Made by a program: the position numbers and the translations under genes. Below, in pieces: positions 7,051 through 34,700 of a stretch of DNA of 64,000 nt. Position 1 is the first letter of the stretch, and each line of letters starts with the position of its first letter. The DNA is from Antedon mediterranea (taxonomy: Eukaryota > Animalia > Echinodermata), in the NCBI RefSeq assembly GCF_964355755.1, contig NC_092674.1:21824001-21888000 (forward strand), given 5' to 3'. The notes below the pieces were generated by a model, which worked only from the letters and a program-made list of their open reading frames with translations, was not told the DNA's origin and did no database searches.

Positions 7051-8601
7051 AATTATTTTAGGAATTAGGTTCAGTTGGGCCTGATGGTCTAGGCATGGGC
7101 CCGATCTGACAGCATCTCAAAAATCTTTTGTATTAATTAATATGTGACCATGTCTGTTTTCAGGACCAGATGACGAATATGAAATAATACCAAGTAAGTT
7201 TTTATCGGTTACAACCAAGGCTTATTGATGGTGATAATAGGATTATTAAAAATAATATTTACATTGATATTTTCCTTGAATTAATAATTAATATTTAACC
7301 TTTTATTTGTGCCTTATTTTTTTGTTGGTTTTGGTGATGGGTTAGATTGATTTAAGATATTGTGTTAAATGTATATTACAATGTGCAATTCTAGTTCCTG
7401 CGATCACCATATTAATTTGACTACTTTTTGAACTATTTTTCCCCTCAATGTTTCTGCTATTAAATACCCTTAAATTAGTGATTTCAACTTTACAGCAGTT
7501 ATTATGGAATTTAACTATGACTAAGTAGTTTTTCATTTTTTTAATAAAATGTATTTTAGAAAATGGGTTTCAATATAATATCCAATCATAACTTTATTTA
7601 TATTATTCTTACTAATTTATTTCTTTCAGATGTTTTATTTTGTATAAGTAGTTATAAATATTAGGTTTATTATATCATGTATATAATGTTATATAAACAC
7701 TATTTAACTTATTTCATACTTTTAGTTGTATTGCCATTTTTTTTTGTCTAATATCGAAGTAGGCCTACCCAAATTTTCTTTAGTGCATGTAATTACATTT
7801 GCTAGTGGATCGATAATCATCAACAAACTCAAATTGCTGTTTCCTTTTTTTATTTCACAAAAGAACCAGCAATGAATAAGAAACAAGCATTTGATGGCAA
7901 AACATTTTCATAAAATCAATAGGTATTGTTTTCATATTATTCGAATTTCAACCTAATAAACGTGAGAGTCAATTGGGTTGTTTTACAGTCTTTGAGAGCC
8001 AGTTTTACTCTTTCTAATGCTTTTGTTCCTTAAGGACAGTTGGAAGAAGCTGATTGGCCAATCAACAGGTTGATCATTAACCAATCACACACCTCCACCT
8101 TCTTCTTAACCTTCATTCAATTATTGATTGTTTTCCATGATATTTGACAACTCATGTTCATCAACCAGCTCTTTTGTTTGTTTTTATTTAACTTCATATG
8201 AGGATCTTTTGTTAATTTGAATTAAACACCTGCTTTTGTCAAACGAAATCATCATCATTTTGAGGACATGGACTTGAAGAGGAATATTACTCTTCCATTA
8301 AATCATTTGATAATTTTCTTCCTTTTATATTTACCTTCTATTTCTTATTTTAATTGAATTATTCAATGTAAAGACCATGTTTATAATTATTATGATATGA
8401 ACCCTTCAATAAAAAAGTAGAAGAAAATTATTATCAAATTACAAAAGTAATTTAATTTTTTTACGGCTCTTCTCTTTCATCATACTTGTTGGTAGTGTAC
8501 CTAGGTGATTGCCATCAAATCTCAAGGTCCAGGGTTCAATCCTGACCCAGCAACTCATGGCTGTTTGTACTCCACCTTTAAACCTCAAGTCGGACTTGAT
8601 A

Positions 8602-11310: not shown

Positions 11311-11437
11311 GTAGCACCAAAAATCTTTAGTTATCATAATCAAAGATCTTCATCACTGTAACCAACATTAGCACGGCTCAACTTGATATTTGGTGTACTT
11401 TTACTAACAGTAACATCGTCGTCGTTTTCTTTATTAT

Positions 11438-13193: not shown

Positions 13194-13233
13194 TCTTCAT
13201 TATGATTGTATACACTATTTCATATTTTTTCAG

Positions 13234-16200
13234 CTGTTAAAATTGGATTTTGAAATCATTGATGGCAAGTCAGTAGAAAAGGGGTATGTTTTTTATCTTT
13301 GAAGTTGAAGAATGGGTTGTTTACATGTATCAATTTTCATTAATATGATCCAAACATTATGACCATAATTTAAATATGTTGTTCTTATAAATGTTGTTTG
13401 TGTTATTAAATTCTGTTTATTGATACAGTTCTGCAAGTATAGAACAAATTGAAAAAGATGTTATAAAGCAGTATCTTACTGAAATGACAAAACAACTTGG
13501 TGGTATGGAAGACATATTCAATAAGGTACAGTAAGTGCTTTATTTCCAGCCAATTCACTATGAGGATACTGTAGGACATTTTTTAGTCCTGATTACTTCT
13601 TAATATCAATCAACATAATTTCATAATGGCAATACTGTACAGTAAATATACTATGTTTGGTTTTGGCCCTTTGCATTATGTTTAAATTTGCGTATCCGGA
13701 TATTCACCCCCTGGACATTTACCACCCGGAAAACTACCCCCCGGACAACCACCACCTGGACCACTACCCCCTTAGGACAACTACCCCTTTAGGACAACTA
13801 CCCCTTTAGGACAACTACCCCCCGGACAAATACCCCCGGACAACTACCCCCTTAGGACAACAACCCCCTTAGGACAACTACCCCCCGGACAACTACTCCC
13901 CGGACAATTACCCCCTAGGAACAATTACCCCCCGGACAATTACCCCCCGGACAATTACCCCCCGGACAACTACCTCTGACACAATACTCCCCGTAGGACA
14001 ACTACTTCCTGGACAATACTCCGAGGGCAAATAATCTTTTAGGACAACTACCTCCGTAGGACAACTAACCCCTGGACAACTAACCCCCGGACAATTGCCC
14101 CCTAGGAACAATTACCCCCGGACAATTACCCCCTAGGAACAATTACCCCCTGACAACCCCCCCCCCCCCCCCCCCCGGGTAATTACCCCGCGGACAACTA
14201 CCTCTGACACAATACTCCCCGTAGGACAACTACCTCCTGGACCTGGACAATACTCCGAGGGCAAATAATATTTTAGGACAACTACCTCCGTAGGACAACT
14301 AACCCCTGGACAACTACCACCCAGAAAACTATCCCTTTAGAACAACTACCCCCCCGGACGGACAACACCACCCAGACCATTCAACAACCTGACTCTGCAA
14401 CAGTGTATAATAGGAATTAATAACTATATTTTAATTCGTTACTTTGACGAATTACTATTCATTATTGTAAACAATAGTAAAAGATTGAACATAAATATAT
14501 CCTGGTTTAAACTGAAGATTGTCACACATGATCATAGGATAGTCGAACGTATTATATAGTACTCCCTGTATTTACTGTAAAGACTGGGTTCGCTAATAAT
14601 AATAATAATGTTTGCGTCAGGACAATGCTTCGATAACCACTGGTCTTAAAAGAATTAATTTTTGTCTCAAATTTGTCATATAGGCCTATGTATTTTTGTA
14701 CACTTGAAGAATAATATCACTTTTGATATTTGACCTCAATGTTCACTCACCGAATAAACGGCGATCTTTAAATAAATTCCCCTCAAATAAACGGTGATCA
14801 TGTCACTCCCATAAAACATCATATGGAATTAATAATCGGCGTCTATTTCCATTAGATTATACCCCCTCCCATTGAATAAACAACTTTCTTCCAATAAATG
14901 TCCACCTAAAAACCACCTAAACAATAAACAGCCCAGGCCGTTTTGTCAATAAATACGGTACTTTAAATCTAGCACATCTAGGGTCTAGCGTGCTGTTAAA
15001 CAGAATAATCGGTTAAAAACGGGTGTTTCGAAACTAGAGATCCGAGACCCAATACGAAAAGGGAGACCTAAATATACGAAAAGAGAGACCCACGTACGAA
15101 AAGGGAGACCCCACTATACGAAAAGAGAGACCCTATTATACGAAAAGGGAGACCTAAATATACGAAAAGGGAGACCCAAATATACGAAAAGGGAGACCCC
15201 ACTATACGAAAAGAGAGACCACACTATACGAAAAGGGAGACCCTAATATACGAAAAGGGAGACCCAAATATAGGTCTCCCTTTTCGTATTGGGTCTCGTG
15301 TCAGGTCTCTGGTCTCGGGTCTCTAGTTTCGAAACACCCGTTAAAAACAGATGATTTCATTTTTACAGAAACCGTTTGTCTACTTTTGGATTGGGGGGGG
15401 GGGGGGTAGTTGACCGGGGGGTAGTTGACCGGGGGGTAGTTGACCGGGGGGTAGTTGACCGGGGGGTAGTTGACCGGGGGGTAGTTGACCGGGGGTTAGT
15501 TGACCGGGGGTTAGTTGACCGGGGGTTAGTTGACCGGGGGTTAGTTATCCGGGGGGTAGTTATCCTAAGGGGGTAGTTGTCCTAAGGGGGTAGTTGTCCG
15601 GGGGGTAGTTGTCCGGGGGGTTGTTGTCCTAAGGGGGTAGTTGTCCTAAGGGGGTAGTTGTCCGGGGGTAGTTGTCCAGGGGGTAGTTGTCCGGGGGGTA
15701 GTTGTCCGGGGGGTAGTTGTCCGGGGGTAGTTGTCCTAAGGGGGTAGTTGTCCGGGTGGTAAATATCCGGGGGGTAACTGTCTAGGGGGTAGGTGTCCTA
15801 GAACCTTAAATTTGTACATACCAATAGAAAGTGCCTTTTATGGTGAGGTTTCGTTTAACAGTTCTTTATTGTATCTGTATTTGTATTATGCTGACTAATA
15901 ATTCAAAGTTCACGCTTAAACAATTTCACAGAAAACAGAAAGTCTTCAGTCGAGTATGAAAGAGTTCTTTGAGAAACATGATGATTTGAAAAGAATGTTT
16001 ATAAAGGAACTCTCAAAAATACACGATATACTGAACAAACTTGAACAAGCTGCAGTTCCACAGAATCATAGTAAGGTTTAATTGTATTTAAAGAAACCAT
16101 TTTGACATATTGTATTGTTTAATACGAAAACAATGTTTATAGAAAAAAATCCTACTTCTGACATTGACAATAACAGTTTCTGGGAACAAAATAATATTTT

Positions 16201-17516
16201 AGGGGGACCTGTTGAAGGGATTGGAAGTACAGTATATATTGAAAATAGCTTTCATGAAACAAAATAATTTTAGATGAAAGCATTTGAGAGAAAAAATTCA
16301 TGAACATGAAGGCTTTTTTATTCAGCTTGTAACATTTTGCAAAAGTTTGGAATATGAAATAATTTTTCTTTGCAGGTGTCACAACCGCAGGAAATCAAAA
16401 CATCATTGTGCAGAATTCAAAAAATGTGAATATTAATATTGATAATACAATTCAAGGTAGGTCAATGTTGCCATCTGTTTAATATTCTTCAATTTGTGAA
16501 CCCTTTGATTTTTATGTCTGAATACCAGGGGCCGGATTTATCAAACTTGCTTAGCAAAAAAATCGTCTTAACTTTGCCTTAAATCCTTGATTTTGCCTAA
16601 GTCAGATTTATCAATATATCTAAGCAAAAAAATTTGCTTAATTTTGTCTTAAATCTAAGACGAAAAACACCCTGCCTTAAGATGAAAAATTTCGTCTTAT
16701 CTCATTTCTGCAACAGAAACATTCTTTTTTGACAACGCGAGCGCGCTAGGCCGGAACATTGAACATTCGGAAAGGCTACGCTAGTGCGTTTTACGCTGTA
16801 CTACGGACGCTAAAATAATGATATCGATTTTCACAAAGATGGCCTAGAAATTGGACGAGCAAAACTAATATTTTCGGGATAGGTACGACCCAATTGACTA
16901 GCTTTTAGAAAACTGTATCGGCTGCCAAGGGTCGCTGTCATTGATAAAAATAAATAAATGTTGATTTGATTTAAGTTTAGAGCGAATGATTTTCGTATAT
17001 ATTTCCGACTGTTGTGCTCTTTCTCTATTTCAAGTAATAAAAACAATAGTAGCCAGAATGCGCCCTCTCTTGTTGGGAGTGAAAATACGGAGATAAAATG
17101 TTATAGCGCCGCCATCGCTAAGAGAAAAAAGCTAATACGCATGCGTAAGCAAGAATTTTTCGTCTTAAGACATAATTTGCTGCCCTCTAGAGTTTAATTT
17201 TGCGCATGTGCAAAGTAAAATTTACCTAAGACAATTTTTCTGCTAAGACATTGCTAAGACGGTTTGATAAATAAGATTAAGTTATTTGCTTAAGCACTTC
17301 TTAAATATTTCACCTTAAGCAAAAATATAAGCAAATATTGATAAATGCCAACCCAGTGGAATTTGAGAAATATTGGCAAAACAACTATGGCATTTGAGTT
17401 ATTGAGTTATTAGGGTTAAGATTATTCTAAAGACATAATTTGATTTTCTTCTACTTTATCTGCAGAATCCAAATCCAATGGCGGTGTTGCCTTGAATGTT
17501 AAGGACTTCATCAAAA
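13234..17516 (+). CDS. Spliced coding chain of an unidentified gene: exons 13234-13268, 13429-13525, 15932-16070, 16376-16456, 17466-17516 (coiled-coil plus N/Q/I-rich segment); start and end not found
   Basis: All five exons have AG/GT boundaries with compatible phases (2,0,1,1,1) and give an open peptide: LLKLDFEIIDGNSASIEQIEKDVIKQYLTEMTKQLGGMEDIFNKKTESLQSSMKEFFEKHDDLKRMFIKELSKIHDILNKLEQAAVPQNHSVTTAGNQNIIVQNSKNVNINIDNTIQESKSNGGVALNVKDFIK. Confidence 0.65.
13691..15805. mobile_element. MuDR/foldback-type element with long inverted arms made of 15-16 bp GGACAACTACCCCCC repeats
   Basis: C-rich array at about 13710-14380 is mirrored by a G-rich array at about 15390-15805. 9-bp direct repeat TTAAATTTG at 13682-13690 and 15806-15814. 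Confidence 0.8.
15021..15339. mobile_element. MuDR-type MITE nested in the foldback element, with internal ~22-bp tandem repeats (TATACGAAAAGGGAGACCC)
   Basis: TIR GGGTGTTTCGAAACTAGAGA.CCGAGACC / GGTCTCGGGTCTCTAGTTTCGAAACACCC. 9-bp TSD GTTAAAAAC at 15012-15020 and 15340-15348. Confidence 0.85.
16529..17353. mobile_element. PIF/Harbinger-like MITE
   Basis: Imperfect TIRs GGGCCGGATTTATCAA..TTGCTTA / TAAGCAAATATTGATAAATGCCAACC, flanked by CAG on both sides. Internal CTTAAG-rich subrepeats. Confidence 0.6.
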
Positions 17517-18003
17517 GTAAGTCAGCATTATTATAATACTTTACCTTCAAAATTGTTTAAGATTAACAAACCAACGTGGCAAATCCTATTTTGATATCCT
17601 TATTGCACCCAATCCCCTATTGGACTTTCAGATTACTGTATTTTGTATAAAACCAAAACTACAAATTCCAATGACATGGGTTATTTACACTGCCATGGCA
17701 ACTCATGTTAAATCTTCTCGAAATATCGTTTTTATACATACCTAATTGCTTAATATTATTTTAATTAAAGAATAAAAATAGATTTAAAAGTACAAAACGT
17801 TCAACCTAGTAAAAAAAATTTCTGCTGCCCGGCCCACAGCCAGAATGTTTATGGAGGGGTTCAGATTTGAAAAAAATTATTATAGGGTTAACCGACAAAT
17901 TAATTGTAATAACGTAAAAATATAATTAGAAATATTGGGCAGGATGTCAATCAGGGCCGGTGAAACGTTTCTGAAATGAGGAATGGGGGTAAAGGTAATA
18001 GTA

Positions 18004-18236
18004 GGTATCCCAATGTAAAAATTCAAATTAATGATGGTACTTTTTCTTCAGTTAATCAAAAGGAACTTACTGAACCTAAACTTTTGCAATTAAAATGATT
18101 GATATCAGATTATCCTTTCAAAAGTTATGTTCAGTCAAAGTTGCCAAAAGGGTTATAACTTTTATATTAATAACTTATAAGTTCTTATTTTTGCCAAACC
18201 CATAGATACCACAGAGTTGTACAAAAAATTATTAAA
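18004..18236. mobile_element. Left terminal fragment of the same DNA transposon family as 1-1863
   Basis: Reverse-complement match to about 1575-1863; begins TA|GGTATCCCAATGTAAAAATTC. Confidence 0.65.
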
Positions 18237-20312
18237 AGTGAATTTTCCCAGCAACCAAACCTGACTGGGCTCCAAACTCACATCATCCTCAGAAATTGCA
18301 CTCTCATAATGGTTTTTTGTAATTTTGCAATGTTATTTTAACCTCTCCACCTCAGCCCCAGCTGGCTGCTAGGTGAGAGAATTTTAGGAATATCGTGGTC
18401 GGGATAAATTGATAAATAGGAAAAGGAAAATATCGTGCAAACTAGAGTTGATAGACTTCAGTCGATCGTTTAATAACAAACTGAAGGAGAATGGCTCTAT
18501 CAAGCTATAGGGCCTGTCGACAAATTGTCTGCGGAGTAGCAATTAGGCTGGTACATCCCCTGTCATGTGGTACACAGTAGTCTAGCATTACTGAACTTGC
18601 TGTTATGTTTCCGGCAAGGACGCGTTGGAGTATCTGGAGATCGACGTACAATATGTTGCGCTCCTCTGGTGGGATGACGAGATGGATACTTGACTTGTGA
18701 TGGAGTGGTTGGTACTCTGGAGCTGCCTGTAGCCTTTGCTGCGCAACATTTGCCTTACAGAAGGTGGCAAATGATAGGCCACCTGAGTTTCGTGTTGGCC
18801 AAATGCAGAGTAGCACAAAAATGCCAAATTTCTATACCACACCTGCAATTACTTGGGGCTCTTCTTGGTGCACAACTAGCTCAGACTATCACCAGTGCAC
18901 TCACCCTGGACGTGGAATATATTATTATGTGGAGTGATTCAACAACAGTTCTTACATGGATACAATCGGATTCCTGTCATTTTGTCGGGACTCGGATAGC
19001 TGAAATCCAGACGTTGACATCCGACAGTGTGTGGTGGTATGTGCGAACAGATGAGAACCCTACAGATGACATTACTCGAGGTCTGTCAGTTACAGAGCTT
19101 GCGAAAGGATCCAGATGGACTGATGAACTTCATGGCTGCTAGATGCAAAAGATACACGGCAGAGGTATAGTGCCTCGATGCTGGCACGAACCCGAGTCTA
19201 ATCATTAAATTCATCTGCAGATACCAACGAGATAAAGAAGTCCCTATTCTGTGGTGTAACCTTGGCAACTCCAATACAGGATATAGACTTGAAAGAATTC
19301 CAGACTTGCCAGAACTTGTATAAGCACTGGGGGAGAAACTCAACACAGTAGATGGACAAGATACGGTTGTATTAAATGCAGAACAAGTACATGATGCCAA
19401 ATATAAACTCTTACAATCATTTAAAGAAGAGATCGCTACACTCACAACCCAGAAAGAATCACAGAAGAGTAGTCGTCTGTTGGAGCTCTCTCCGGAGCTG
19501 GATGAAACGATAAACATTAAATTTGTATAGGTATACTCAGGAAAGTGGATAAACAACACTAGTGTAGGACCACATCCAATTGTCCTCCCACCATCATATC
19601 CAGTAACCAAGCTTCTTATCCAGGATGCGGATAATCATTTCAACCACCAGGCCGGAACCGAGCAAGTTTTCGCCTTTCTGCGTTGTCGCTTCTGGATATT
19701 AAGAGGACGAACCTCTGTCATAGGTATACTCAGAAAATTCTATTCCACAGGGAGGGTATTGCTTTGTCCCAATTGCAGTGAAAGTTAGACGGTCACAAGA
19801 AAAGTGTTGGGGCCTTGTCTTCAAGTGTATGACAGTTCATCTGGAACTGATAGAGTTTCTTGATGTGGATCTTTTTCTGATGGCATATAGGCATTTTGCC
19901 TCTATGCAGAGAAGTACCATATGAACTCTGTAGTGACTGTGGAACAAACTTCAAGGGCACAGAGAAAAGGATTGAGACTGCACCGAAAGCAATGGAACTG
20001 GAGTCTGGCAACATTTAAAGTGAGATTTTGCTTTAACCCTCCAAGTGCTCCTCTTTGGTGGGTTGTGGGAGTGGGAAATGAGGTCTATCAAATGTGCGCT
20101 GAAAGGAGTTCTACGAGACCGAGTATTACCTGATGTTGTGCTACGTACCATTCTGTCGGAAGTGGAAGGAATTATGAACTCTAAACCTCTTGGCTACGCA
20201 TCCTCCGAGATAGCTGATATCAACCCAGTTACACCAAATATGCTGTTGATTGGGCAGCAGGATCCTGCTCTACCCATGGTTGTGTACAAGGAGTCAGAAC
20301 TAAAAGGACGGC

Positions 20313-21925
20313 GTTATTCCCATGCAATTCTGGATCTTGTTAACAACATCACCTCATCTCTTGACAGTTTTTACTCTCCGTTTTTAGACTTGTCAAAAGC
20401 GTTTGATGTCATCAATCATAAAATTCTTTTTGGTAAATTATTTAATTATGGCATTGGAGAAATTGCATTAAACTGGTTTGAAAGTTATTTAGTAAACCGT
20501 AAACAGTATGTTGCGTTAGGCTCATTTAAATCATCAGTGGAGGCTGTAAATTGCGGAGTGCCTAAAGGGTCGGTTTTAGGACCACTACTATTTTTAATTT
20601 ATGTAAATAATCTTTCTAGATCAAGTGACACTCTGAAAGTCATATCCTTTGCTGATGATACTACGATTTTGTATTCTCATTCTGATATCAATGTCTTATA
20701 TAACACCGTCAACACTGAACTAAATAAAATGACTGACTGGTTCATCTCAAATAAGCTTATTGTTAATGTACAGAAAACTAATTACATTTTATTTCGTACT
20801 CAACAAAGACAAATTGATTTCTCTAATCTTAATATTTACATTAAAGATGTATTGTCCCTTTGACTAATTCCAAAAAAATAAAAAATAAAAGATGGGTCAT
20901 TTTGAAGTATCATAATAGCTATTAACTATCACAAAAAATTTTTCGAAAAAAAAACAAAATTTGACCTTCATTTTTTTGTGTTTCAAGAGACAATACATCT
21001 TTAACAATAATATTATTGAACGTAAACCCGAAGTATTATTCCTCGGAGTTTATTTACATGAATACTTGAGATGGACCAGTCATCATGTATCTAAAAAGAT
21101 ATTGTAATTGGCATCCTTTGTAAATTAAGACATTTTTTTCCACAACATATCTTACTCTTGTTTAACACCCTTATACAACCTCATCTTCTTTATTGCAACA
21201 TTATTTGGGCAGCCGACTACCCATCAAATTTAGAAAAACTTAATAAACAAATTAAACGTGCTGCCCGTATTATTACTTTCTCTCACTATCTCGCCCCTTC
21301 CCAACCTTTACTTAAAAAACTCAATATTCTTAGTAAACATGATCTATTTACAACACAAATTGCTTCCTTTATTTTTCAATTCTTTAATACCAGACTCCCT
21401 GTGACAATGTCTAATCTATTAAGTCATCATACAAAATCACACAAGTACAATTTACGTATCAACAATAAATTTCAGCATCTTGAGGTACCTCTTTTTAGAC
21501 TGAAAATTTCCGAATATTGTATTTCTGTTTCAGGGCCGCGAATCTGGAATGATCTTGATGACAAACCTAAAGCATTTTAAATCTCTTTATACTTTTTGTA
21601 AAAATTAAAAAAAATATCTTATTTCTTTATACTAATTTTTTTAAATATTATTATGATTGTAGTACACTGAAAGTATCTATTTTTATTTCATCGTTTTTGT
21701 TTTTATTTATTATTTTATGTAGTAAAATGTATTAGTTTAAATGTATGTGTATTGTTTCTGGGGTCTTTATCGAGACAAGAAACTTGATTTCTTCTAGAGA
21801 AGACCCCAAATGATGGCTTATTACTAATGTTTTCATTTATGTACACATCTATATATTATACTGTATAATGCCATTGTTGAACAAAATAAATGTTGTTGAA
21901 CAAAATAAATGTTTTTGAACTTGAG
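20313..21925 (+). mobile_element. 5'-truncated L2/CR1-group LINE inserted in the BEL integrase
   Basis: The ORF at 20045-20863 switches from BEL integrase to RT motifs FLDLSKAFD, WFESYLVNRKQYV, GVPKGSVLGPLLFLIYVN and FADDT. It continues at 21005-21580 (FLGVYLHE, YCNIIW, GPRIWN). 3' AATAAA and a TTGAAC-type tail near 21920. Confidence 0.88.
20845..21000. mobile_element. Kolobok-type MITE inside the LINE
   Basis: TIR AGATGTATTGTC / GACAATACATCT flanked by TTAA (20841-20844, 21001-21004). Removing it restores the RT frame IYINNNIIERK. Confidence 0.85.
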
Positions 21926-21954
21926 TTGATCAGATCATGGAGGTATCCTCCATG

Positions 21955-22258
21955 ATCAGATCATACAACATCGGCAAGGGTTCGAGGCCGACTCGCTCCT
22001 AGTTCTGGTGGTGGAACAAGTCTTCTCGGATAAGGACTATAAACCGTAGGTCCAGTGTACACAGTTATAACCTGTGTGTACTTTAAAGAAACCCAGTTCA
22101 TTATTCGAAAAAGAGTAGGGGGTTACCCCGGTGAACTGGTTCACACAATAGCCCCTGTATCAGGGGGATTACCACCTATCTGATAGGACAGTGATTAATT
22201 CACTATTGGTAATCCTTGGCCACATTGTCTAAAGACATAAAATAAAAAAAAAAATAAA
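21955..22258 (+). mobile_element. SINE with a Deu/Nin-type core
   Basis: B-box-like GGTTCGAGGCC; core TCGGATAAGGACTATAAACCGTAGGTCC...TTAAAGAA.CCC...AAGAGTAGGGGGTTACCCCGG resembles the DeuSINE central domain; A-rich tail. An inverted partial copy lies at 46218-46360. Confidence 0.7.
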
Positions 22259-23199
22259 ATACTTACCGACTCTGTAAAAGCGCCAGAAGTGGCAGAGATC
22301 GAGAACTTGAAGTTGGAGACGTGATGATAGTAGTCCACAGTTGAGCCAATCATTACGCGGACCAGGCTACTTTAGCGTTACGTTTGGCATCCACTGAATC
22401 AGTGGATGACCTATCCCCTCAACATGTCAATTGTGGTATAAGTTGACAGGAATAATACTCTGTGGTGTAATAAAAATGCCAGCGTGTTTATTTAAGACTG
22501 CAAGTGTTAAGAATAACTTGCTCTCCATTTTCAACTTCCTCTTACCAATGACCAATAGCAAACAGGCACTGCTTGTCAATCAGGTCCTCACTGACTGGGT
22601 ATTAACCAATCAATTTACTATTAGATAGGTCACTGATTTTATAAAATAGTTTGCGGGAAATTTGATTTCTGACCTTGTACAGGAATAAATACTTTAGTGG
22701 TTGTTTATAATAATAATCTAAATATTTCTCAATGCTGCTTTATGCAAAGCAATTTAACTAGAACTACAGACACATTAAATAAATACTTTTAAACATGAAC
22801 AATAGTTTTGTTAGGGAATTGGGATGGCCGTGTGATATTCAATTTATTAAATTTAATGGGAAAGTATATATCTTTCACAAAATTTCGTATGTCATCAGGC
22901 AGCGTTTTAAAGGCTGGAAGCCCTTTGATCGATTTTGGGAACAAAATGGATTGATAGTCAATCATGAGTACTTCCGAACAGTGCTAATGTATCACGAAAG
23001 TATATTAGTGTTTCATGTTTTATTCACCTGTTGTTGGGTGGTGGACATCTTGTAGACAATGTACAGCAGCAACAAACATACATAATTGATACAAATGAAC
23101 ACAATTTAAATTTGATAACTCTACGCAATTTTATACGAGATAAATGCGTAGACTCGGTCATCAATGACCGTCTACTTGATAATATAAACGACGAGCCCG

Positions 23200-24089
23200 T
23201 GGAAGAAAATGTAGCCTACAACAGAACTATTAGAAAGAATTAATCGCAAAAGGGTTAGGCCTTAGCCAGATATACCACGGAGTTCAAATATCCCCCGCCA
23301 TTCCTCCTGATGGATTGAGGTGGCAGGCATCAAAGCGATTTTAAAATTGAATGGAAGCGCATCGAAAATAAATAAAAGATCTTTCTCGGAAGATTCATTG
23401 TGGAGGAAAATCTGACTTGCTGCATGCGTTTGCATGGTAGGTAGAAATCAACGTTCCGATAAAAATAAAATAATTCACAAATTCTTATCAGATAGATCTA
23501 CGTAAACGTGTGAAGTAGAAAGAGGTCTTATTTACAGTATATCAGTAGGCCTAATATATATTCGTATAAAATATCCTAATTTCCACAACTCAGGATTATG
23601 TCCATAATGATATCAATAGTAAGAATCTGTTATAGGCCTATGCGTAATTTTTTTTAATTAAGCCACTCATTTTTCATTATCATACATTAAATTCAATTAT
23701 ACCATACACAATTCAGTGATTATTTTACAGTTATTTTCTTATTTTCCCAATTGTCTTTTCTCTTACAGGTAATAACGTGGTACGTGCTTCATGATTGATG
23801 GTAAAATTAATTTATACCAGTAACAATAGATTATGGCAAGGCATTTCGGACCGGACGGAGTAGGCCTACTCCTTTAAAGTTGTCATCGGAGGAGAAGATT
23901 AGGTGGAAGAAATGCTTTCCATGGACTGCACCAGAAGTAATTTCTGGTGTCGAAGCACCATCAGAGCACAGCGCTATTTACGCGTTTGGATACATGTTCA
24001 GCCGCATATTTACCAAAACGAACAACATAAGAATACGGGAAACTGGCGAGATATGCATGCGGCGGCCGTCACCTGCAGAGCTAGCTTGA
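23200..24089 (+). pseudogene. Spliced protein-kinase remnant inside the TIR element
   Basis: A mini-exon at about 23595-23619 (CAG|GATTATGTCCATAATGATATCAATA|GTAAG) joined to the exon at 23769 gives YVHNDINSNNVV (catalytic-loop-like). It is followed by IDYGKA, WTAPEVI, SAIYAFGY and CMRRP. A stop and frameshifts are present. Confidence 0.7.
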
Positions 24090-24479
24090 CCACCACCTTT
24101 TATGTAATAACGTTAGATCATGAATAATTAGAAGTCATATGTTTTTCAGAATGGATTTTTAAAAAAGGGGAGCAATAAATTGTAGCTTTTTTTTCTTTTA
24201 TTTATTATTAGTTTATGTATATATATTTTTTTATTTTTCGTATTTGTATTTAATGTTATATTTCGTGGTGGGTCAAACTTACTGACTGACTTATTATGAC
24301 TCTCTCCCCACATGATTACTTCATTGCATTTATTATCCTGTATGTATGTTATTATATTGTGGAAATAAAATTAAATTGAAAATGAAATTATATTTATTTG
24401 CAATTATCACGTATTTTGTTCTATTATACATTGTATAAAATTGTTATAAAACGATGACAACATTACAAAAACAGTTTCT

Positions 24480-26840
24480 GGGTACAACACTTGTAAAAAA
24501 AAATTGTTTTGTACAAAAACATTGACTGGGTACAAAAACGGAGGCAGGGTATAAAAACAGTGGCAGGGTACAAAAACACTGGCAGAGTACACAAACAGCG
24601 ACAGGGTACAAAAACGGTGGCAGGGTACAAAATCGATGGCAGCTGGGTACAAAAACAGTAGCAGGGTACAAAAACAGTAGCAGGGTACAAAAACAGTAGC
24701 AGGGTACAAAAACAGTAGCAGGGTACAAAAACAGTAGCAGGGTACAAAAACAGTGGCAGGGTACAAAAACGGTGACAGGGTACAAAATAGATGGCAGCTG
24801 GGTACAAAAACAGTAGCAGGGTACAAAAACAGTGGCAGGGTACAAAAACGGTGGCAGGGTACAAAAACGGTGGCAGGGTACAAAAACGATGGCAGATGGG
24901 TACAAAAACAGTGGCAGGGTACAAAAATAGTGGAAGGGTACAAAAACAGTGGCAGGGTACAAAAACGGTGGCAGGGTACAAAAACGGTGGCAGGGTACAA
25001 AAACGATGGCAGATGGGTACAAAAACAGTGGCAGGGTACAAAAATAGTGGAAGGGTACAAAAACGGTGGCAGGGTACAAAAACGATGGCAGCTGGGTACA
25101 AAAAAAGTGGCAGGGTACAAAAAAAGTGGCAGGGTACAACATCGATGGCAGTTGGGTACAAAAAATGAGCAGGGTACAAAAAATGAGCAGGGTACAAAAA
25201 CAGTGGAGGGTACAAAAACGGTGGCAGGGTACAAAAACGGTGGCAGGGTACAAAAACGATAGCAGCTCGGTACAAAAACAGTGGCAGGGTACAAAAACGG
25301 TGGCAGGGTACAAAAACGGTGGCAGGATACAAAAACGGTGGCAGGGTACAAAAACAGTGGCAGGGTACAAAAACGGTGGCAGGGTACAAAAACGATGGCA
25401 GGGTACAAAAACGATGGCAGCTGGGTACAAAAACAGTGGCAGGGTACAAAAACGATGGCAGCTGGGTACAAAAACGGTGGCAGGGTACAAAAACGGTGGC
25501 AGTGTACAAAAACAGCGTCAATGATTTTATACAATAGTTCGCGGGAAATCTGATTGCTGACCTTATACAGGAATAAATACTTAGTGGTTGTGATATTCCA
25601 TTTATTTAATTTAATGGGAAAGTATATCTTTCACAAAATGTCAAAAATATCTTTGTATGTCAGGCAGTGTTTAAAAGGCTGGAAGGCCCTGGTGGAAGGG
25701 TACAAACAGTGCCAGGGTACAAAAACGATGGCAGGGTACAAAAACGATGGCAGCTGGGTACAAAAACAGTGGCAGGGTACAAAAACGATGGCAGCTGGGT
25801 ACAAAAACAGTGGCAGGGTACAACATCGATGGCAGTTGGGTACAAAAAATGAGCAGGGTACAAAAACAGTGGAGGGTACAAAAACGGTGGCAGGGTACAA
25901 AAACGGTGGCAGGGTACATAAACGATAGCAGCTCGGTACAAAAACAGTGGCAGGGTACAAAAACGGTGGCAGGATACAAAAACGGTGGCAGGGTACAAAA
26001 ACAGTGGCAGGGTACAAAAACGGTGGCAGGGTACAAAAACGATGGCAGGGTACAAAAACGATGGCAGCTGGGTACAAAAACAGTCGCAGGGTACATAAAC
26101 AGTGGCAAAGTACACAAACAGTGGCAGAGTACAAAAACGGTGGCAGGGTACAAAAAAAGTGGCAGGGTACAAAAACGGTGGCAGTACAAAATCGATGGCA
26201 GCTGGGTACAAAAACGGTGGCAGGGTACAAAAACGATGGCAGATGGGTACAAAAACAGTGGCAAGGTACAAAAATAGTGGCAGGGTACAAAAACGGTGAC
26301 ATGGTACAAAAACGGTATCAGGGTACAAAAACAGAGACAGGGTATGACAAGCAGTGGTCTATGGTACAAAAACTTGTGTTGTATACAAAGTGTCTGGGAA
26401 AAAAGACGATGACAGTGGTACAAAAAACGGTGGCAGGGATACAAAAACGGTGGCAGGATACAAAAACGGTGGCAGGCTATAAAAACAGTCGCAGGGTACA
26501 AAAACAGTCGCAGGGTACAAAAACGGTGGCAGGGTATAAAAACAGTGGCAGGGTACAAAAACAGTGGCAGGGTACAAACACGATGGCAGCTGGGTACAAA
26601 AACTGGGGCATGGTACAAAAACAGTGGCAGGGTACAAAACAGTTGCAGGGAAGAAAAACGGTGTCAGGGTACAAAAACAGAGACGGTACGACCAAGCAGT
26701 GGTCTAGGATACAAAAACTTGTGTTGTATACAAAGTTTCTGGGAAAAAAGAAGATTGCAGGGATACAAAAACGGTGGCAGGGATACAAAACAGTGGCAGG
26801 GTACACACAATTGTGTTGTACTAAAACAGTGGCAGGGTAA
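24480..26840. repeat. 19/23-bp minisatellite (GGGTACAAAAAC(A/G)GTGGCA) in two blocks, about 24480-25517 and 25690-26840
   Basis: About 100 tandem units seen directly. The two blocks are separated by a 170-bp copy of sequence at 22635-22925. Confidence 0.95.
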
Positions 26841-28599
26841 AAAACATACACACTTATTTGTAGCATTTTACGAAAAAAAGTATCAGAGTAACATCAGCAG
26901 AGCTAAACAAATGATGAAAGGGTCAGAACATTTGACTCTGGCAGATAACAGATAACATTACTTTTCAAGAGTGATAAGAAAAAAGGAAACATATTATATT
27001 CAATTTGTTAACCTAAATATATCTTTCATTTTTAATTTAAGATAATTATTTACATAATGATAAAACTTTTTAATGTGTATTAATTTAAATTGGTTATCAT
27101 CACTTGGCGTTTATTTTTATTTATATGTTTATTTTAGGGTTCTTTCATAGGTCAATCATTTTTTCCATTCAAACTTAAAAATTGGCTATTTGTAGTTTAT
27201 TGTATTAATCTTTATGGTTTATTTTACATCATTTATATCTCAATGTATATTGCATTATTGTTCTTATCTTTGATTAAATATTAATATTATGTACTGTAGT
27301 AGGCCTATACACATTTTTAAAAATGCTCAACAAAGTCTCAAACCACATAAAATCTAAAAGTTGAAACTGAATATTTAATGGCCCATGAGAATTCTAGGTA
27401 GCCTGCGCAAAGGTCATCGAGGCCAAACTTAAGAGGATGACTCAAGCTCTTCCATGTGAATCATCTCAGGTTAGACCAACCTCCAGTGGGCAGGACTTGT
27501 AGTTAGAACTTGTGGCTCAAATGACACTCCAGGGCAATAAAATCACAATAACTTACAAAGCACTGACAGTAATTGCTTGTCAAAACCAAATTGCCTAACC
27601 GTAACGCTAACGTAGCCTGGTCCGCGTAATGATCTCAGTGGCCAGTCGGCATTGTTTCGGCGCTATATCCAAGCAGTGACAATCGAGTGAGAGTGGTGGA
27701 TGTTTGTGTCAACAAAGAGGTTTATCGATCTTGTGAAATTGTTGAAAGTAACGATAAAGCCGAAGAATCTAGAGCATAATTATTAGTTATGGCTTTAAAG
27801 ATATGTAATGTTTGAAACATAAGCCACGATAATGTTAAAAGAAGTTTAATCCATTGATTAATGATACAGGAAAATTGGTATGACTTGTACCTTGATTTTA
27901 TTAGGCGAATTTCATTAAGAAATTCTGAGGCCGACTGTTAAGACAGCGCAATATCCAAAAAGTGTCATTGCGCCCTCTGTTGTGGGTTAGCTTGTTGAAA
28001 AATAGCGATTGTATCGTCACAGTAAAGTTGATTATTTTTTAATAAATAGATGGATGTTGTTATAAACAATTCATGATTGATACTTATTTGCAAGTAAAGA
28101 TTCAACTAAACAAACCCAGCAACCCACCAAACAGAACAATTATTGTCGCTGACTAATGATGAAAATTCCCCCTACTATGTTAAATACTGTTATAGTGGGG
28201 AACCTAATGTTCCAAATATCAATTATGTAAGATTTTAATGCTCAAGTTGAGTTGTTGGCAGTTTTGGAATCCTTAGGACTAGTAGAATTCATTGCAACTG
28301 GTGGCCAATTTTTCCCGACCCTATTTTGGCCGCCATCTTGGATTTCAAAATGGCCCCCATTTTTTACTCAAAACTCATAGTAGCTCCTATTTTAAACAAC
28401 AGTCCTAAAATTTATAGCATTTATGTTACCAACCTCAACCCTGCAACCCTCCAAGTAAACACACTCACTATATTATAAAATATATTATATTTTGGTTTTT
28501 GTGAATAGGTTGGGAACCCCTCATGAATGTCAAAATAAACATGCATAATTCAGTAATCATATGCTTAGGTCTTGTCCAGGTCCCTAATTTCCAGAGGCG

Positions 28600-28677
28600 T
28601 GGCCATGTTTTCGAGAACTATTCATGTACACTCACGCATATAGACCCACTAGAGGGTGAGCGAGCAAACCCTCTAGT
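28600..28677 (+). mobile_element. Helitron-like 3' end (hairpin + CTAGT) just upstream of the first Zisupton exon
   Basis: Palindromic arms ACTAGAGGGT(gagcgagca)AACCCTCTAGT ending in CTAGT. Confidence 0.4.
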
Positions 28678-28722
28678 AATGAAATGAGAATTAACATTTA
28701 TAGTACACATTTATATTTTCAG

Positions 28723-31700
28723 AATTTTGGAGATATACTTTTGGTAAATTGTGGAAAAAATCGGTTACTGCTGAGAACACGCCTGATCACCAGGATAGCA
28801 AATGTGATATAGATGTACGAGTAAATGAAACTTTATCACAGAAAGAAGCTGTTAACGATGACTGTGGCAGGAAACTATTAAAGAAAAATTCAAGCATACA
28901 CTGTCAGAGAGGTTATGATGAAAGAGCGAAGCAGAATTTAAATCTCCTGCCAACTGTATGCGTTGACAAAGAGGAAGGTATTTTTGCTGTTCATAAAAAT
29001 GAGAAATCTGCTCATCCCATTCATGTTGTAAAAAGGACAATTGCCAAAGGAGATATGCCAATGAATTTGTTTTGTGAGGTGGAAGAGTGCATGATGGCAG
29101 TCAATCTGGCTCGCTACAGTGGAATAACATCCTTCGAATGTATACACCTTTTATCAGTTGCTGACAGTGAACCGCATCGACAGCAGGGAATGCTCAGTAA
29201 GGACAAGTTGCTAGAGTTGTCTCAATCTCAATCACAGCAGTACTCTAAGGAAATATTACATTCTGCAGATGCATTGAACCAGGCAGCTAGAACATGTGCT
29301 AAATGCAGTGTATATCCCATTTCGCAGATGACAGAAGATAACACATTTTTGTTCTTCTCAGTTTATTGCCCCACAGTAAGCTACTACAATAAGGTGAAAA
29401 GAGTGATAGTGCATTATAAGGCGATTGACAATTCATGGAATTGTAAATGTCCAATGGGTGAGCGGTCATGTGTACATAAAGTAATGGCAAAGTGGTATAT
29501 GTTAGAAAGTGCTCCGCAACTGTTAATGAAAACACTGACCACACCAACACAAACTGAACAAACATCTAAGCCAAATGCAAGCAATTATCCTCCACCTACT
29601 GCAATGAAAAGAAAAATGGTTTCCTATTGGTTAAACAATGCCAGCAAAAGAATACCGTATCCTGTTCCAAAGAAATTCACTCAAGTCAACTTAAATTCTC
29701 TGGATCTAGTTCCTACAGAAATAAGGTGTTCACAGTGTCCAGGAAACCCAACATTGGGTCTACGAAAACTGATAACAAGTCACGCTTCAATCATTACTAT
29801 GCATAAAATTATTAAAGGCAAGTTTATGGCAATGATATGTTCAAATCATGACAATTATAATAAAAAAGTAACACAATTTCTTTCTTCGAACACAAATTGC
29901 ATTGACATGTTTGAAATGGATGAAATTACTTATTAACAACTAGAACAGCCCTCTGAGAGTGCATATACCTCCCCCTACTGTAAAATTCTCCTACATAAGA
30001 TTTTTTTTTTTTGGTGTTTTAATGTTGTGTGTGATTAGGCTAATTTCACTACAACCTTGTGTATGCGAATTTCGTGTAATGGTTATGTAACCAGCCTTTC
30101 AACTAACAATAGTTTCAGTTGACTAACAATAGAACAGCAATGCCAAAAACAAATTGAAAAGAAGTCGGTTTTTTTTAAACTACTTGTATCCAAAAACCTG
30201 TACATTATTAAATCAAATTACAAATGCCAAATTATAACTCTTGCCTCTTAATTGTACCTTTTTTGGACAAGTAGTTCTTGAGAAAATGCCATTTCAGTTT
30301 ACTTGTTACTTTAAGACTGTTCACCGGCTTTTGAAAATTGTCTCCTATCTTTTAACACTAGTAGGTCTGAAAATAATACTAAAAGTGGTCCAGAATTGGG
30401 ATCGTGGTTCGGATTGCTTCCAATGGAGTGGTCCTTGACCACATATCGATCTGTATTTTCATTTTGGTAAAGATCTTGCAATAACTTTTTGAGTAGTCCT
30501 GCTAACAAACAGACACACGCAATCGACTACATATACCTACTTGTCGGAGGTAAAGTTAATTATTGTTAATAACAGATAATCAAACACTCCCTAATAACAT
30601 TGTAATTTGTGTTTGAATAATAATTGAAATAAAATAGTTGAAAATGCCACAACTATATAATTTTAAATTATCATTAATTATTTCAGATGTTAAATTGTAC
30701 ATCAGAGAGTGTACATTATGTTCCTTGCCTTACCGATATCAAGAGTACACGGACGGAATTCACAATTTCGATGACAACTGGTTAATTTCCTTGGAACTAC
30801 TTGTGTTTTTGCGCCACAATCGGATGGTGAGTTATCCCATCCCATGGACAATGAATACAAGGACTTGCATCGGCGGCGAGATAAAACGAGCTTGCCTATA
30901 ACAATGTATCTTGCCTCAGCCCTCTATAGACAGTTTCAAATCAACTGTTAAAATTTTAAAATCATTATCAAAAACAAATGTACTCATGTATACAGTAAAT
31001 CATATATGCAGCCTCATTGCTCTATTGACTCCTCCACGGTAGTTGCAAACAATTACAACAATATGTTGCTGAACTCGATTATTTTTAATTTCATCAAAAT
31101 CGGGCGACAGAAAACTTATTTTCTTTTAATACAACCATAGCTTTTAGGTATTTTATATTATTGAAAACATAAAATTTGAAGTATTAGAATTATTACATTG
31201 TTCCAAAACCATGTAGTGATGTGCAGTGCAACAATTGTTTTAAATACATGGCTATAGGCAGCATTTTTTTCCATGAATCTCCTTAATTTATTTATCTATG
31301 TGATCTGGTGATTGTCATCTACAGTACATCACCGGGCCAAATCAAATCTAAACTGCTGCTGGCCAGTTGCGATACATGACTGACCACACACTCGTGCTCG
31401 TTTTGAAAGTAGACGCATGCCATACTTTCTCTCACTTTTTTTTCAGAGTTATATGGCTCTCGATGGTGTACTTACTGCTTTAGAAAATATGATAAATGAA
31501 AAACTACCATCAAAGGTATTACTACGTGGTTTGGAGCACTTCGAGGCCTTGAGTGAACGATCTTATAACTTTACATGTGTTGCATGTGGTATTCATCCAC
31601 CTATCCTTATAATGGAAATGCAGAAAAACGCTTGCTTTTCATTGGATGGTAAGTTTGTAGAGAAACTATTAATAGGCACAATTCATTATTGTTGTTGGTA

Positions 31701-34700
31701 CACTTTTCAAAATTATTTAACATCATTTTCAAATTATAGTTTCAGAGTTAGAGCTTCCAGATCTAACAGATGAAAATGACTCTGTCGATATTGAGGACTT
31801 TTGGACAAAAGTGAAAAAAGAAAAGCTGATAAATGGGCTACTAATAAGTAAGTGAACATTTAATTATGTTACAGTTATCATTGTATTCACTCAAAACAAT
31901 ATTAATGCAGTATAATAATATTAACAATAATTACCAGCACATACAAAATAAGTTATCGAATGCCAAAATTGAGTTTCATTGGATCAGATGTTGAAAATAT
32001 TGACTATAATCTTCAACAGAGAATGAACGAAACCCATTAAAAGTCAAACCTACATATACAAATTGGGCCCCATTTATTGGTAGACGAACCTGCTCTGCTG
32101 TTAAAGCTATCAACACTGAACATCGAAAATTTGTGCGAGACACCTCTCAACTTGAAGTTGATTGCCGGGAGACTTGTAAAAAACAACTTTTAGAAAGGCT
32201 GCTTTCACCACATATAAAGGCAGGTTTTGTAGTTTTATAAGAACAGTAGCAGAAAAATTAATTAAATGACCCTTGTTTTTTTTTTTTCTTAGTACAATAT
32301 AGTTGAGTACAACTTTTTAGATTTGCGTATATTATTTTGTTCTAACTGTGGTACTTGTTTATTTCAACATCCAGAGACTTTTTAAAATTTAATTAAACCA
32401 AACAACATTTTATAAAACACAAATTTTGCAGGTTCATCAAGTGAAAGATTTGTGCAGGGTATGTGATGTGAAACCAACCGGGTCCAAGCTTGACATGGTT
32501 TTGCAAATACAGGGCAGCAGTGTATGGGGCACTTCAGGTAAACCTTTTCAGAAAGGCATTTATTTTTTGGGTGTATGGTAACAAATAAATAAATGCCACT
32601 TGATATAAAAAAAATACAACACAATTAATATCAAGAAGTTATAAAATACAGTAAAAATTATATCAAAATACTTTGTAAATTGTAGATCTTTGAAGTCATG
32701 AATTCTACTACAAATAGAAATGTGTTCTAATACAGTATTGTGTGTAATGCACTTATTCAAAGCGAGGCATTTATTTGAATAAATACGGTATGTCTAATTT
32801 TCTAGTAGTATTACAAACAGTGATATTGCTGATATTCTGGAAATATTGATATTTTCTTTGTTACTTAACAGGTGGTTGGCTCTCTGCAAGTTGTCCACAT
32901 CAGATTGTATATGGAGTAAAATTCTTGCTCCTGGCCGAAAGTCCAAGGGACTATGTAGACTTGATTATGTCTTTGGCAAAACAACCACCAATTATTGTAT
33001 GTGATATACCCCAGATGGTTTCGAGACATGGTAACCGACGTACAGATGGAGTTATGTTTCAACCAAACGAAGGAAGATTTGTGGAACCAACTGAGGAAAA
33101 CATAAAAGCAGCCAAAGAAGGGACACTGCAAGTTCATCTTAAGACACTAGATGATGTCTATCCCAACATGAATCCTACATCCGTCACTGTAGATACAAAA
33201 GCAACACTTTGCCTCTTCAATACTTTTCATCAATTTGATACAAAAATGGAAAGGGAAGTACTACGAAAAGTTTGCCTATGCCCACAATTAAAAGGAATGT
33301 TAAATTCCCAGGTTGCAGAGCAGCTCCACAGATCTAGAGATTTCTTGAACAGCATGAACCCATCATCACACATTTTCTCTGTTTTGAATATACTAGACAG
33401 CAACAACACATCATTAAACCAGATATATGTTTCAAATATGAAGAAAGTGTTTAAGAAAGAAATAATCATCGATGACTGTAGTAAAGCAGTCATAGATACA
33501 CAAAGTCACGGTACGTTTTTGCAACCATATAACAGTTTCAGGAATTGAAACCAGACATGATACAATTACCATCATTTTGTAGAGTGACATGTATGTTACA
33601 CTACAGTTCGTATCTAAAATTAACCCATTTATATTGCAAATAGCTCATAATCGTATACTATCAACATTTTATCATATGTAATAAAGGAAATAAACAATAA
33701 CCTCAATGAAAGTTTTCCTTTTTAAATTTCATGCTAAGAATACCAATTCCCTTTAGCCCTTATTTATATTTCACCATTGTTTTTTCCAGTTATACCAATG
33801 CCCAGCAACATAAAAACAGAGAAAGCCACTGAGCAGAATGACGATGTCACCCATTCTGGTCAGTTAAACTTATATTAAAAACAATTTTTTCGATCCAGTT
33901 TTTGGTCAAAGGAATAATTATTATGTGATATTAAAATGGCATATTAAAAAAATTGTTTTTAAATATTATATCAGGGGGACAGTACAGTATATCTTTAATA
34001 GGGGTTCTACTGTATTTGAGAACCATCTGTGGGCACGACCTAGTTGGTGTGAGCGTTCCATTCAAATAAACACAATGATAAACCAAAAATTAAATACAAT
34101 ATGTTTAATTTCATTATAGAAACTGGAGAAAGAGATGTACATTCAGAGGACATCAATAATATTTATATTCCCGAAAAATATATAAACGGTAATAGAAATA
34201 AAGTAACAAAAAGCTGAATACATAAAAACACATGTAAAGTACAATTGTAAATTTTTTTTTAAATTGTTAAATTATATGAAGTATATTTAAATATATAGAG
34301 CGTATGGCATCGGTTACCTGTGTCACATTTGAGGAACTCCAAATTGGCCATATAATTATAATTTTATAAATAATAATTTGCAAATGACGAAATATATAAT
34401 ATAGACAACTTGTGCTGTCATAGTAGGGCATAATTATGACCAAACCTGATTTTTTTCAATCTGAAATATATACAATGAACAATACAGTCCAAACAAGTAT
34501 CTAAGGACAGGAATGTTGTGTATGCACAGACAATTTTCAAAATAAAATATTGATAATCATCAATTTTAGATGAGGATGAAGATATAGCAACAGACGAAAC
34601 TGATGCTGTTGCTAAAGAGTGTGACTTCAATACAACACCAGAAACAAAAAATTTGCATCACATCATTGAATCACTCCCAGAATCATGGAATGATGATATG

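What the first reader, a model, noticed from the sequence alone, without database searches (positions are those of the whole stretch)
13234..28760. Possible host-transposase fusion: an orphan five-exon chain is in phase with the headless Zisupton ORF across an 11-kb TE-filled intron
Seen: the upstream chain ends ...TTC ATC AAA A|GTAAGT at 17516 (phase 1), and I found no natural next exon. The first Zisupton exon starts TTTCAG|AA TTT TGG at 28723 (phase 1), only about 530 bp inside the candidate left end, with no start exon of its own. Splicing gives ...VKDFIK-K-FWRYTFGKLWKK in frame. Almost everything between them is transposon debris. Inference: a chimeric gene joining a coiled-coil/N-rich host N-terminus to SWIM-SAP-KDZ-Ulp1-PHD. 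A phase match alone has roughly a one-in-three chance of coincidence.
Basis: partly seen in the sequence, partly recalled or inferred. Interest (0 to 1): 0.72.

Follow-up and report, generated by a model that had tools for sequence, protein, structure and literature searches.

The report
HEPN RNase gene meets headless Zisupton
The five 'orphan' exons are the tail of a feather-star gene for a predicted RNA-cutting defence protein (CXorf38 family), and NCBI's gene model splices them in frame onto a nearby transposon gene that has lost its own start; the fusion is likely a real but optional splice form, since the one RNA-like data set checked ends the gene early instead.

Summary
The five exons (13234-17516) and exon 28723 splice in frame, and three RefSeq models of Antedon mediterranea (XP_071950011-13) already make this join. 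The chain is not orphan: it is residues 222-360 of a CXorf38/DUF4559 (predicted HEPN RNase) paralog whose first 221 residues lie outside the window; relatives stand alone or carry dsRNA-binding domains. The Zisupton element (28192-43058, 8-bp TSD) lacks the N-terminal zinc fingers of its relatives, so it is headless and the host exons are not part of it. Its 16-exon frame is open (1244 aa), but conserved transposase residues have eroded. Against a simple fusion: in the only RNA-like run, the contig reads through donor 17516 to a stop 18 nt later and a poly(A) signal, and enters 28723 unspliced; no junction was seen, at low depth. RefSeq and that run both read through the GC donor at 29817, so the annotated product is 764 aa (HEPN-helical-SWIM), not the full SAP-KDZ-Ulp1-PHD chimera. 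Verdict: likely a lineage-specific host-transposase fusion used as an alternative splice form; a known kind of event with a new domain pairing; function unshown.

The parts
13234..13283 (+). Host exon A of the CXorf38/DUF4559 paralog (P0001 residues 222-238); begins at an acceptor, upstream exons lie outside the window
13429..13525 (+). Host exon B (helical C-terminal part of DUF4559)
15932..16070 (+). Host exon C (end of DUF4559 match, Pfam aa 11-309); covered by an X1 contig piece 15930-16072
16376..16456 (+). Host exon D (Asn-rich linker); spliced to 17466 in run X1
17466..17516 (+). Host exon E, with phase-1 donor GTAAGT after 17516 used by the RefSeq fusion models
17517..17776 (+). Alternative terminal extension of exon E: 6 more codons, stop TAA 17534-17536 (366-aa protein), AATAAA at 17771; X1 contig runs unspliced to 17689
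17517..28722 (+). 11.2-kb candidate intron: Pao fragment (about 18500-20300), LINE RT fragment (about 20300-21900), broken kinase-like frame (about 23800-24090), 19/22-bp minisatellite (about 24430-26840), left end of the Zisupton element
28184..28191 (.). Left 8-bp target-site duplication ATACTGTT
28192..43058 (+). Zisupton/KDZ-type element, 14,867 bp, imperfect subterminal inverted repeats (about 28230-28361 and 42868-42999)
28723..29817 (+). First remaining transposase exon (phase-1 acceptor; eroded C2H2-like finger, SWIM-like motif at 29442, start of CxC4); GC donor after 29817
29818..29936 (+). Read-through of the GC donor to the stop that ends the RefSeq 764/794-aa models; X1 contig 29675-29973 also crosses it unspliced
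30687..33510 (+). Six exons of the transposase core (CxC4, SAP, KDZ RNase H-like fold): 30687-30826, 31447-31648, 31740-31847, 32020-32219 (GC donor), 32432-32537, 32872-33510
33790..35046 (+). Four acidic linker exons: 33790-33858, 34120-34188, 34570-34704, 34909-35046; an X1 contig joins 32872-33509 to 34569-34705 with 138 letters between, the summed length of the first two
36649..38681 (+). Four Ulp1 (Peptidase_C48) exons with His, Asp and Cys motifs kept: 36649-36815, 37405-37536, 38251-38396, 38564-38681
41695..41967 (+). Last exon, PHD-like finger and stop
43059..43066 (.). Right 8-bp target-site duplication ATACTGTT

Best explanation
A CXorf38-family gene for a predicted HEPN RNase ends 10.7 kb upstream of a headless Zisupton transposase in the same orientation, and a share of its transcripts likely splices from the donor at 17516 to the transposase's phase-1 acceptor at 28723, while others read through that donor and stop locally. 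Steps: (1, shown) the host gene has DUF4559 with the RxxxxH motif and no dsRNA-binding exons in the window, unlike its paralog on a contig of the same length; (2, shown) the element is bounded by an 8-bp TSD and lacks the zinc-finger exons of its relatives; (3, inferred) those exons were lost by internal deletion, leaving an internal acceptor with no partner of its own; (4, annotated by RefSeq, not seen in my reads) the host donor is spliced to it; (5, seen in one run) the competing outcome is a 366-aa stand-alone HEPN protein; (6, RefSeq plus one run) the weak GC donor at 29817 is often not used, so the usual fusion product would be the 764-aa HEPN-helical-SWIM protein, and a 1605-aa form with SAP-KDZ-Ulp1-PHD would need both GC-AG introns removed. 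The fusion is a lineage-specific splice form with no demonstrated function; the transposase is probably no longer able to mobilise the element.
For: Three RefSeq models carry the join, and no RefSeq short form turned up among 881 candidates of 30-419 aa; if NCBI's RNA had shown only read-through, a complete 366-aa model would be expected (inference; pipeline behaviour recalled). 0 of 150 other proteins match both halves (11 host half only, 139 transposase half only). Paralog P0002 and 21 other relatives have an N-terminal zinc-finger region that a profile does not find in the window (best E 0.12). TSD and inverted repeats put the host exons outside the element. Both halves are covered by spliced contigs in X1 (16456 to 17466; 33509 to 34569 via 138 letters). 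Coexistence of parental and fusion transcripts is the usual state of young host-transposase fusions (18 of 33; 10.1101/2020.05.07.082677, section 5).
Against: In X1 the contig with spliced exon D-E goes on unspliced through 17516 to 17689 and the contig over the big exon starts at 28629, 94 letters before the acceptor, with no break at 28723; no loose end at either site was listed (both tables were cut). RefSeq models can contain ab initio parts (PMC12605758 passages) and I could not see the evidence lines for these three. An open 16-exon frame despite erosion of conserved residues fits a neutral by-product less well than it fits selection.
Confidence: 0.55

Rival explanations
1. Two separate units. 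The HEPN gene ends at 17536 with its own poly(A) site; the headless element is transcribed by read-through or from its own left end; the join is a gene-prediction artefact that gave a start-less 400-codon frame an upstream exon.
For: X1 shows read-through at the donor, with zero cover just before the acceptor of exon E, so it is not plain genomic background there, a stop after 6 codons and AATAAA at 17771; unspliced entry at 28723; 6 of 11 host-half relatives are stand-alone proteins of 223-388 aa, so 366 aa is a normal size.
Against: Three RefSeq variants share the join and no short RefSeq form was found. X1 is one low-depth set of contigs (depth about 6), which drops minor forms, and also has unspliced cover elsewhere (16314-16375, 27632-27800, 30753-30923).
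Confidence: 0.25
2. A selected, domesticated fusion gene: the frame of the transposase has been kept open under host selection while its cut-and-paste chemistry decayed, giving a HEPN RNase joined to zinc-binding, and in the long form Ulp1 and PHD, modules.
For: 1244 codons and 15 introns intact; simulated neutral substitution leaves the frame open in 26 of 500 runs at 2% and 0 of 500 at 5%. At 166 conserved columns the window copy alone has lost 15 and the paralog alone 5 (p 0.04), so it has drifted for a while; its two clear deletions (about 13 and 4 residues) are both in frame. Ulp1 His/Asp/Cys motifs are kept. Exon contigs have the depth of neighbouring unique DNA, so no close sister copies are evident.
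Against: No second species with the fusion among 150 proteins; insertion age unknown and the TSD is perfect; differences from the paralog may predate insertion; RefSeq and X1 both read through the GC donor, which leaves most of the open frame outside the annotated protein; no dN/dS could be computed.
Confidence: 0.16
3. The upstream exons belong to a larger Zisupton element that captured a HEPN gene as cargo.
For: KDZ elements do carry extra domains and genes (Ulp1, OTU, UCH; TET/JBP in PMC12730594, passages).
Against: TSD and inverted repeats close the element at 28192; 0 of 139 transposase relatives carry the host half; the host gene extends more than 13 kb further upstream, beyond the window.
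Confidence: 0.02

Closest known systems
Host-transposase fusion genes (KRABINER, SETMAR, CSB-PGBD3; Cosby et al., 10.1101/2020.05.07.082677, passages and section 5 read)
   Same: Host exons spliced in frame to a DNA-transposon acceptor; parental and fusion transcripts can coexist.
   Different: There the acceptor usually lies just before an entire transposase ORF and the host part is often a chromatin or transcription domain; here the acceptor appears to be an internal one left after loss of the first exons, the host part is a predicted RNase, and neither junction reads nor purifying selection are shown.
CXorf38 / DUF4559 family of HEPN domains (PMC3710099, passages; 10.64898/2026.05.28.728550, passages)
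   Same: Pfam DUF4559 at E 1.8e-34; RNxxMH motif (172-177) and the Asp 28 residues before it are kept, the same spacing as D134 and R162 in human CXorf38; the family is known for swapping C-terminal partners.
   Different: [quoted passage not shown]
Zisupton (KDZ) DNA transposons (8-bp TSD, TIRs, SWIM-CxC4-KDZ; PMC12730594 and PMC11343200, passages)
   Same: 8-bp TSD, inverted ends, SWIM-like motif, CxC4, SAP-like region, KDZ-type core, Ulp1, PHD.
   Different: No start exon or N-terminal zinc fingers; Asp to Glu and Asp to Asn changes and two in-frame deletions in the core; no close copies evident.
Zebrafish F-box::CxC7 genes (PMC12062965, passages)
   Same: A cellular-type domain joined to a KDZ-derived zinc-binding domain.
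   Different: Different domains; F-box also occurs in a Zisupton isoform itself, so direction of capture is unclear there.

Membership tests
Host-transposase fusion gene (Cosby criteria) | Host domain in frame with a transposase-derived domain in an annotated model | tested here: met
Host-transposase fusion gene (Cosby criteria) | RNA evidence for the fusion junction | tested here: inconclusive
   One low-depth RNA-like run shows read-through at both sites and no listed junction; both ends were never on one laid stretch. RefSeq's own support not visible.
Host-transposase fusion gene (Cosby criteria) | Splice acceptor supplied by the transposon | tested here: met
   28723 lies inside the TSD-bounded element; whether it is the ancestral acceptor is inferred only
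Host-transposase fusion gene (Cosby criteria) | [quoted passage not shown] | not testable with these tools
   No eukaryote genome or orthologous DNA available; no second fusion among 150 proteins; indirect signs only
CXorf38/DUF4559 HEPN | DUF4559 profile match above cut-off | tested here: met
   120 bits against cut-off 27, aa 11-309
CXorf38/DUF4559 HEPN | RxxxxH catalytic motif | tested here: met
   R172, N173, M176, H177 and D144 invariant in 9 of 9 aligned proteins; these residues are encoded outside the window
CXorf38/DUF4559 HEPN | HEPN fold | tested here: inconclusive
   Helical model with pLDDT mostly 70-90 over aa 11-310; best structural match Z 8.1, unspecific
CXorf38/DUF4559 HEPN | RNase activity | not testable with these tools
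   Predicted only, also for the human protein in the passages read
Zisupton/KDZ transposon | 8-bp target-site duplication | tested here: met
   ATACTGTT at 28184 and 43059, the only shared 8-mer in the two end windows; chance for windows of that size 0.068
Zisupton/KDZ transposon | Terminal inverted repeats | tested here: met
   Imperfect and subterminal: score 66 against a maximum of 37 in 500 shuffles
Zisupton/KDZ transposon | SWIM + CxC4 + KDZ core | tested here: met
   SWIM-like motif at 29442 (no Pfam SWIM hit); CxC4 E 1.7e-5, just under cut-off, on one exon; colinear with CxC4-bearing relatives. The Pfam KDZ model itself did not hit the single exon tested.
Autonomous, active Zisupton | Complete ORF with own start and N-terminal zinc fingers | tested here: not met
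Autonomous, active Zisupton | Intact acidic catalytic residues | tested here: inconclusive
   Asp in 11 of 18 relatives is Glu here (31615); Asp at 33003 and Glu at 33318 kept; Asp in 15 of 18 is Asn (33219). Which of these are catalytic is recalled, not tested.

The most novel reading that the evidence does not exclude
A crinoid has domesticated a Zisupton transposase by splicing it onto an innate-immune-type HEPN RNase that lost its dsRNA-binding domains: the transposon's zinc-binding modules (and, in the 1605-aa form, its Ulp1 protease and PHD finger) replace the dsRNA sensors and would aim the RNase at chromatin or at the element's own repeats, with alternative splicing switching between free and tethered nuclease.
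Probability: 0.1. Interest if true: 0.75.

Novelty: new member of a known kind. Interest (0 to 1): 0.42.

Why it matters
Transposase capture by splicing is well described in vertebrates, mostly with chromatin or transcription domains. This locus would extend it to an echinoderm, to the little-studied Zisupton superfamily and to a predicted defence RNase, and it seems caught at the early stage where short and fused forms compete. It is one RT-PCR away from a yes or no. If the junction is not spliced, it is a useful example of a RefSeq model joining a host gene to a headless transposon.

Tried and rejected
No whole genome is held, so copy number, the first exons of the host gene and the paralog's DNA could not be read. 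Run search: no holder on record as RNA; X1 is a guessed RNA run, treated as RNA-like because two of its contigs are spliced. Direct laying of reads across both splice sites was not done: the stretch contains a 2.4-kb tandem repeat, so the two ends were laid separately and the junction could only have shown as a loose end, in tables that were cut. Parts without cover in X1 (30960-31487, 17744-17800) are not used as evidence. Idea that exon E is the first helix of a lost dsRNA-binding domain: suggested by a global alignment but not supported by BLAST (match ends at aa 308) or by a small and poorly built profile (312 of 458 scored shuffles as good); dropped. dsRBD exons were not found in the window with 9 homologs. 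Third protein search covered only 1547-4415 aa and found nothing: uninformative, so a wider survey of DUF4559 partners was not achieved. Structure searches gave only generic helical matches; the domain was not folded alone. Two small candidate exons (35429-35478, 36505-36529) put stops in the frame and were removed; the decay simulation was therefore void and was redone. Rfam: 0 matches in 11000-44000. Earlier findings: none returned. Paper searches for a prior description: DUF4559 (2 listings), CXorf38+HEPN (2), Zisupton+HMGXB3 (0), CXorf38+transposase (4 listings on other topics, not opened); most subscription papers are not in the library, and Bohne 2012 and Iyer 2014 were not read.
Full report
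Observation. A search with the 28723 exon returned two proteins labelled Antedon mediterranea: P0001 (764 aa, 100% identical) and a paralog P0002 (1315 aa, 55%). The joined window exons are an exact substring of P0001 from residue 222 to the end. P0001 stands for XP_071950012 and XP_071950013, and a 794-aa variant XP_071950011 differs only by 30 extra N-terminal residues. So NCBI's annotation already makes the proposed join three times.

The host part. Residues 11-309 of P0001 match Pfam DUF4559 (E 1.8e-34); residues 1-221 have no real match in the window, so the gene starts upstream of base 1 and the chain is not orphan. DUF4559 is the CXorf38 family (one relative is so named), described as a HEPN family fused to dsRBD, NACHT, ankyrin, CARD or DEATH domains and proposed to act in antiviral defence (PMC3710099, passages). 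The RNxxMH motif (172-177) and D144 are invariant in 9 of 9 aligned proteins; the spacing equals that of D134 and R162 proposed as catalytic in human CXorf38 (10.64898/2026.05.28.728550, passages). RNase activity is a prediction. Of 152 proteins held after the library-wide search (best 150 of 448 hits, plus P0002 and P0003), 11 match only the host half, 139 only the transposase half, and only P0001 and P0003 match both. Of the 11, five carry dsRNA-binding motifs and six have DUF4559 alone. One dsRBD-bearing protein is an Antedon paralog on a contig of the same length as P0001's, 32% identical; others come from Anneissia, Ptychodera, lungfish and eel. No dsRBD exon was found in the window.

The element. 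An 8-bp duplication ATACTGTT at 28184-28191 and 43059-43066 bounds 14,867 bp with imperfect subterminal inverted repeats (score 66; 0 of 500 shuffles reach it, maximum 37); a shared 8-mer alone would arise in 6.8% of random window pairs. In the DNA-like runs a unique contig ends at 28220 and depth jumps more than 100-fold over 28056-28583, which agrees with a repeated terminus starting near 28190 (the tool warns that depth is no copy number). 8-bp TSDs and SWIM-CxC4-KDZ are the marks of Zisupton (PMC12730594, PMC11343200, passages). Sixteen exons from 28723 to 41967 give an open frame of 1244 codons with two GC donors (29817, 32219), Ulp1 motifs and a PHD-like end; exon choice beyond 34704 rests on splice signals and frame, not on reads. 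P0002 and 21 other relatives have an N-terminal zinc-finger region; a profile from 17 of them hits 58 of 152 proteins but nothing in the six frames of the window (best E 0.12). The element is therefore headless and the host exons lie outside it.

State of the transposase. At 166 columns conserved among 17 relatives (missing N-terminus and the exon absent from P0002's model left out), the window copy alone has lost 15 and P0002 alone 5 (binomial p 0.04). Losses include a Cys and His of a finger at 28854 and 28914, and Asp to Asn at 33219; an Asp found in 11 of 18 relatives is Glu at 31615. Two deletions of about 13 and 4 residues are in frame. Neutral substitution would leave the frame open in 98 of 500 runs at 1%, 26 at 2% and 0 at 5%. 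The insertion age is unknown, so this is a hint of selection on the frame, not proof.

RNA. Five runs hold the exon; none is on record as RNA. X1 behaves as RNA: it has a contig spliced 16456 to 17466 (GT-AG) and a 1411-letter contig joining 32872-33509 to 34569-34705 with 138 letters between, the length of my two predicted exons. But the first contig continues unspliced through 17516 to 17689, which gives a stop at 17534-17536, a 366-aa protein and AATAAA at 17771. The contig over the big exon begins at 28629 and has no break at 28723, and another crosses the GC donor at 29817, as the RefSeq models do. No loose end was listed at either site, but the tables were cut (3 and 1446 rows not shown), depth was about 6, contigs drop minor forms, and X1 has other unspliced patches. 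The two sites were laid in separate calls, so a joint between them could not be listed. On the other side, no short RefSeq form was found among 881 candidates of 30-419 aa. RefSeq models mix alignment evidence and ab initio parts (PMC12605758, passages; PMC4414376 and PMC5753468 passages added nothing); that multiple variants usually mean transcript support is my recollection.

Mechanism and verdict. Most likely (0.55) the host gene has two outcomes at 17516: read-through to a local stop, or splicing across 11.2 kb to the orphaned acceptor of the headless element, giving mostly a 764-aa HEPN-helical-SWIM protein because the next donor is a weak GC. This matches young host-transposase fusions, where parental and fused transcripts coexisted in 18 of 33 cases (10.1101/2020.05.07.082677, passages and section 5). 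Rivals are a prediction artefact joining two units (0.25), a selected domesticated gene (0.16) and a larger element (0.02). Zisupton-derived genes and F-box::CxC7 fusions are already reported (PMC3424704, PMC12062965, passages); a CXorf38-KDZ pairing did not appear in my searches (listings only for 29 and 75), which do not cover most subscription journals or bioRxiv supplements. Structure prediction gave a confident helical N-terminal domain and an unreliable C-terminal half with no specific match. Novelty: new member of a known kind; interest 0.42.

Noticed in passing
window 22680-24100 and 25554-25690: A broken protein-kinase-like frame (YG and WTAPE motifs; Pfam kinase E about 0.05, below cut-off) with stops, and a second 78% similar copy of its upstream flank at 25589-25688, inside the long intron next to the minisatellite.
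   Followed up: partly
window 2645-4140 (-), 11437-13195 (-), 39065-41590 (+): Three related repeats (70-80% alike) that end in a hairpin; one sits 40 bp before host exon A and one fills the last intron of the Zisupton gene. Family not determined.
   Followed up: no
window 13690-15810: Fold-back element: arrays of a 15-bp unit in opposite orientations around a core that itself holds a 22-bp tandem array.
   Followed up: no
window 16522-17357: High-copy insertion in host intron D-E, with several unrelated flanks in run X1; spliced out cleanly.
   Followed up: partly
window 29817 and 32219: Two of the 15 introns of the transposase have GC donors, more than usual; the paralog's RefSeq model also goes astray at the first of these junctions.
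   Followed up: partly
window 7165-7194: A 30-nt exon-like piece with good AG/GT ends in the intron upstream of exon A; not part of P0001 or P0003.
   Followed up: no
P0011, P0050, P0100, P0122, P0146: CXorf38-type HEPN plus two to several dsRNA-binding domains in crinoids, a hemichordate, lungfish and eel: a candidate dsRNA-activated RNase family of animals, predicted in 2013 and apparently little tested.
   Followed up: partly
P0002, P0072, P0075: Relatives of this transposase carry different C-terminal proteases: OTU (P0002), Ulp1 (P0072), UCH plus Ulp1 (P0075).
   Followed up: no
window 45800-51000 (-), 59249-59635 (-), 61300-62730 (-): Exons of unrelated host genes on the minus strand, including a GPCR-like frame at 59249-59635.
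   Followed up: no
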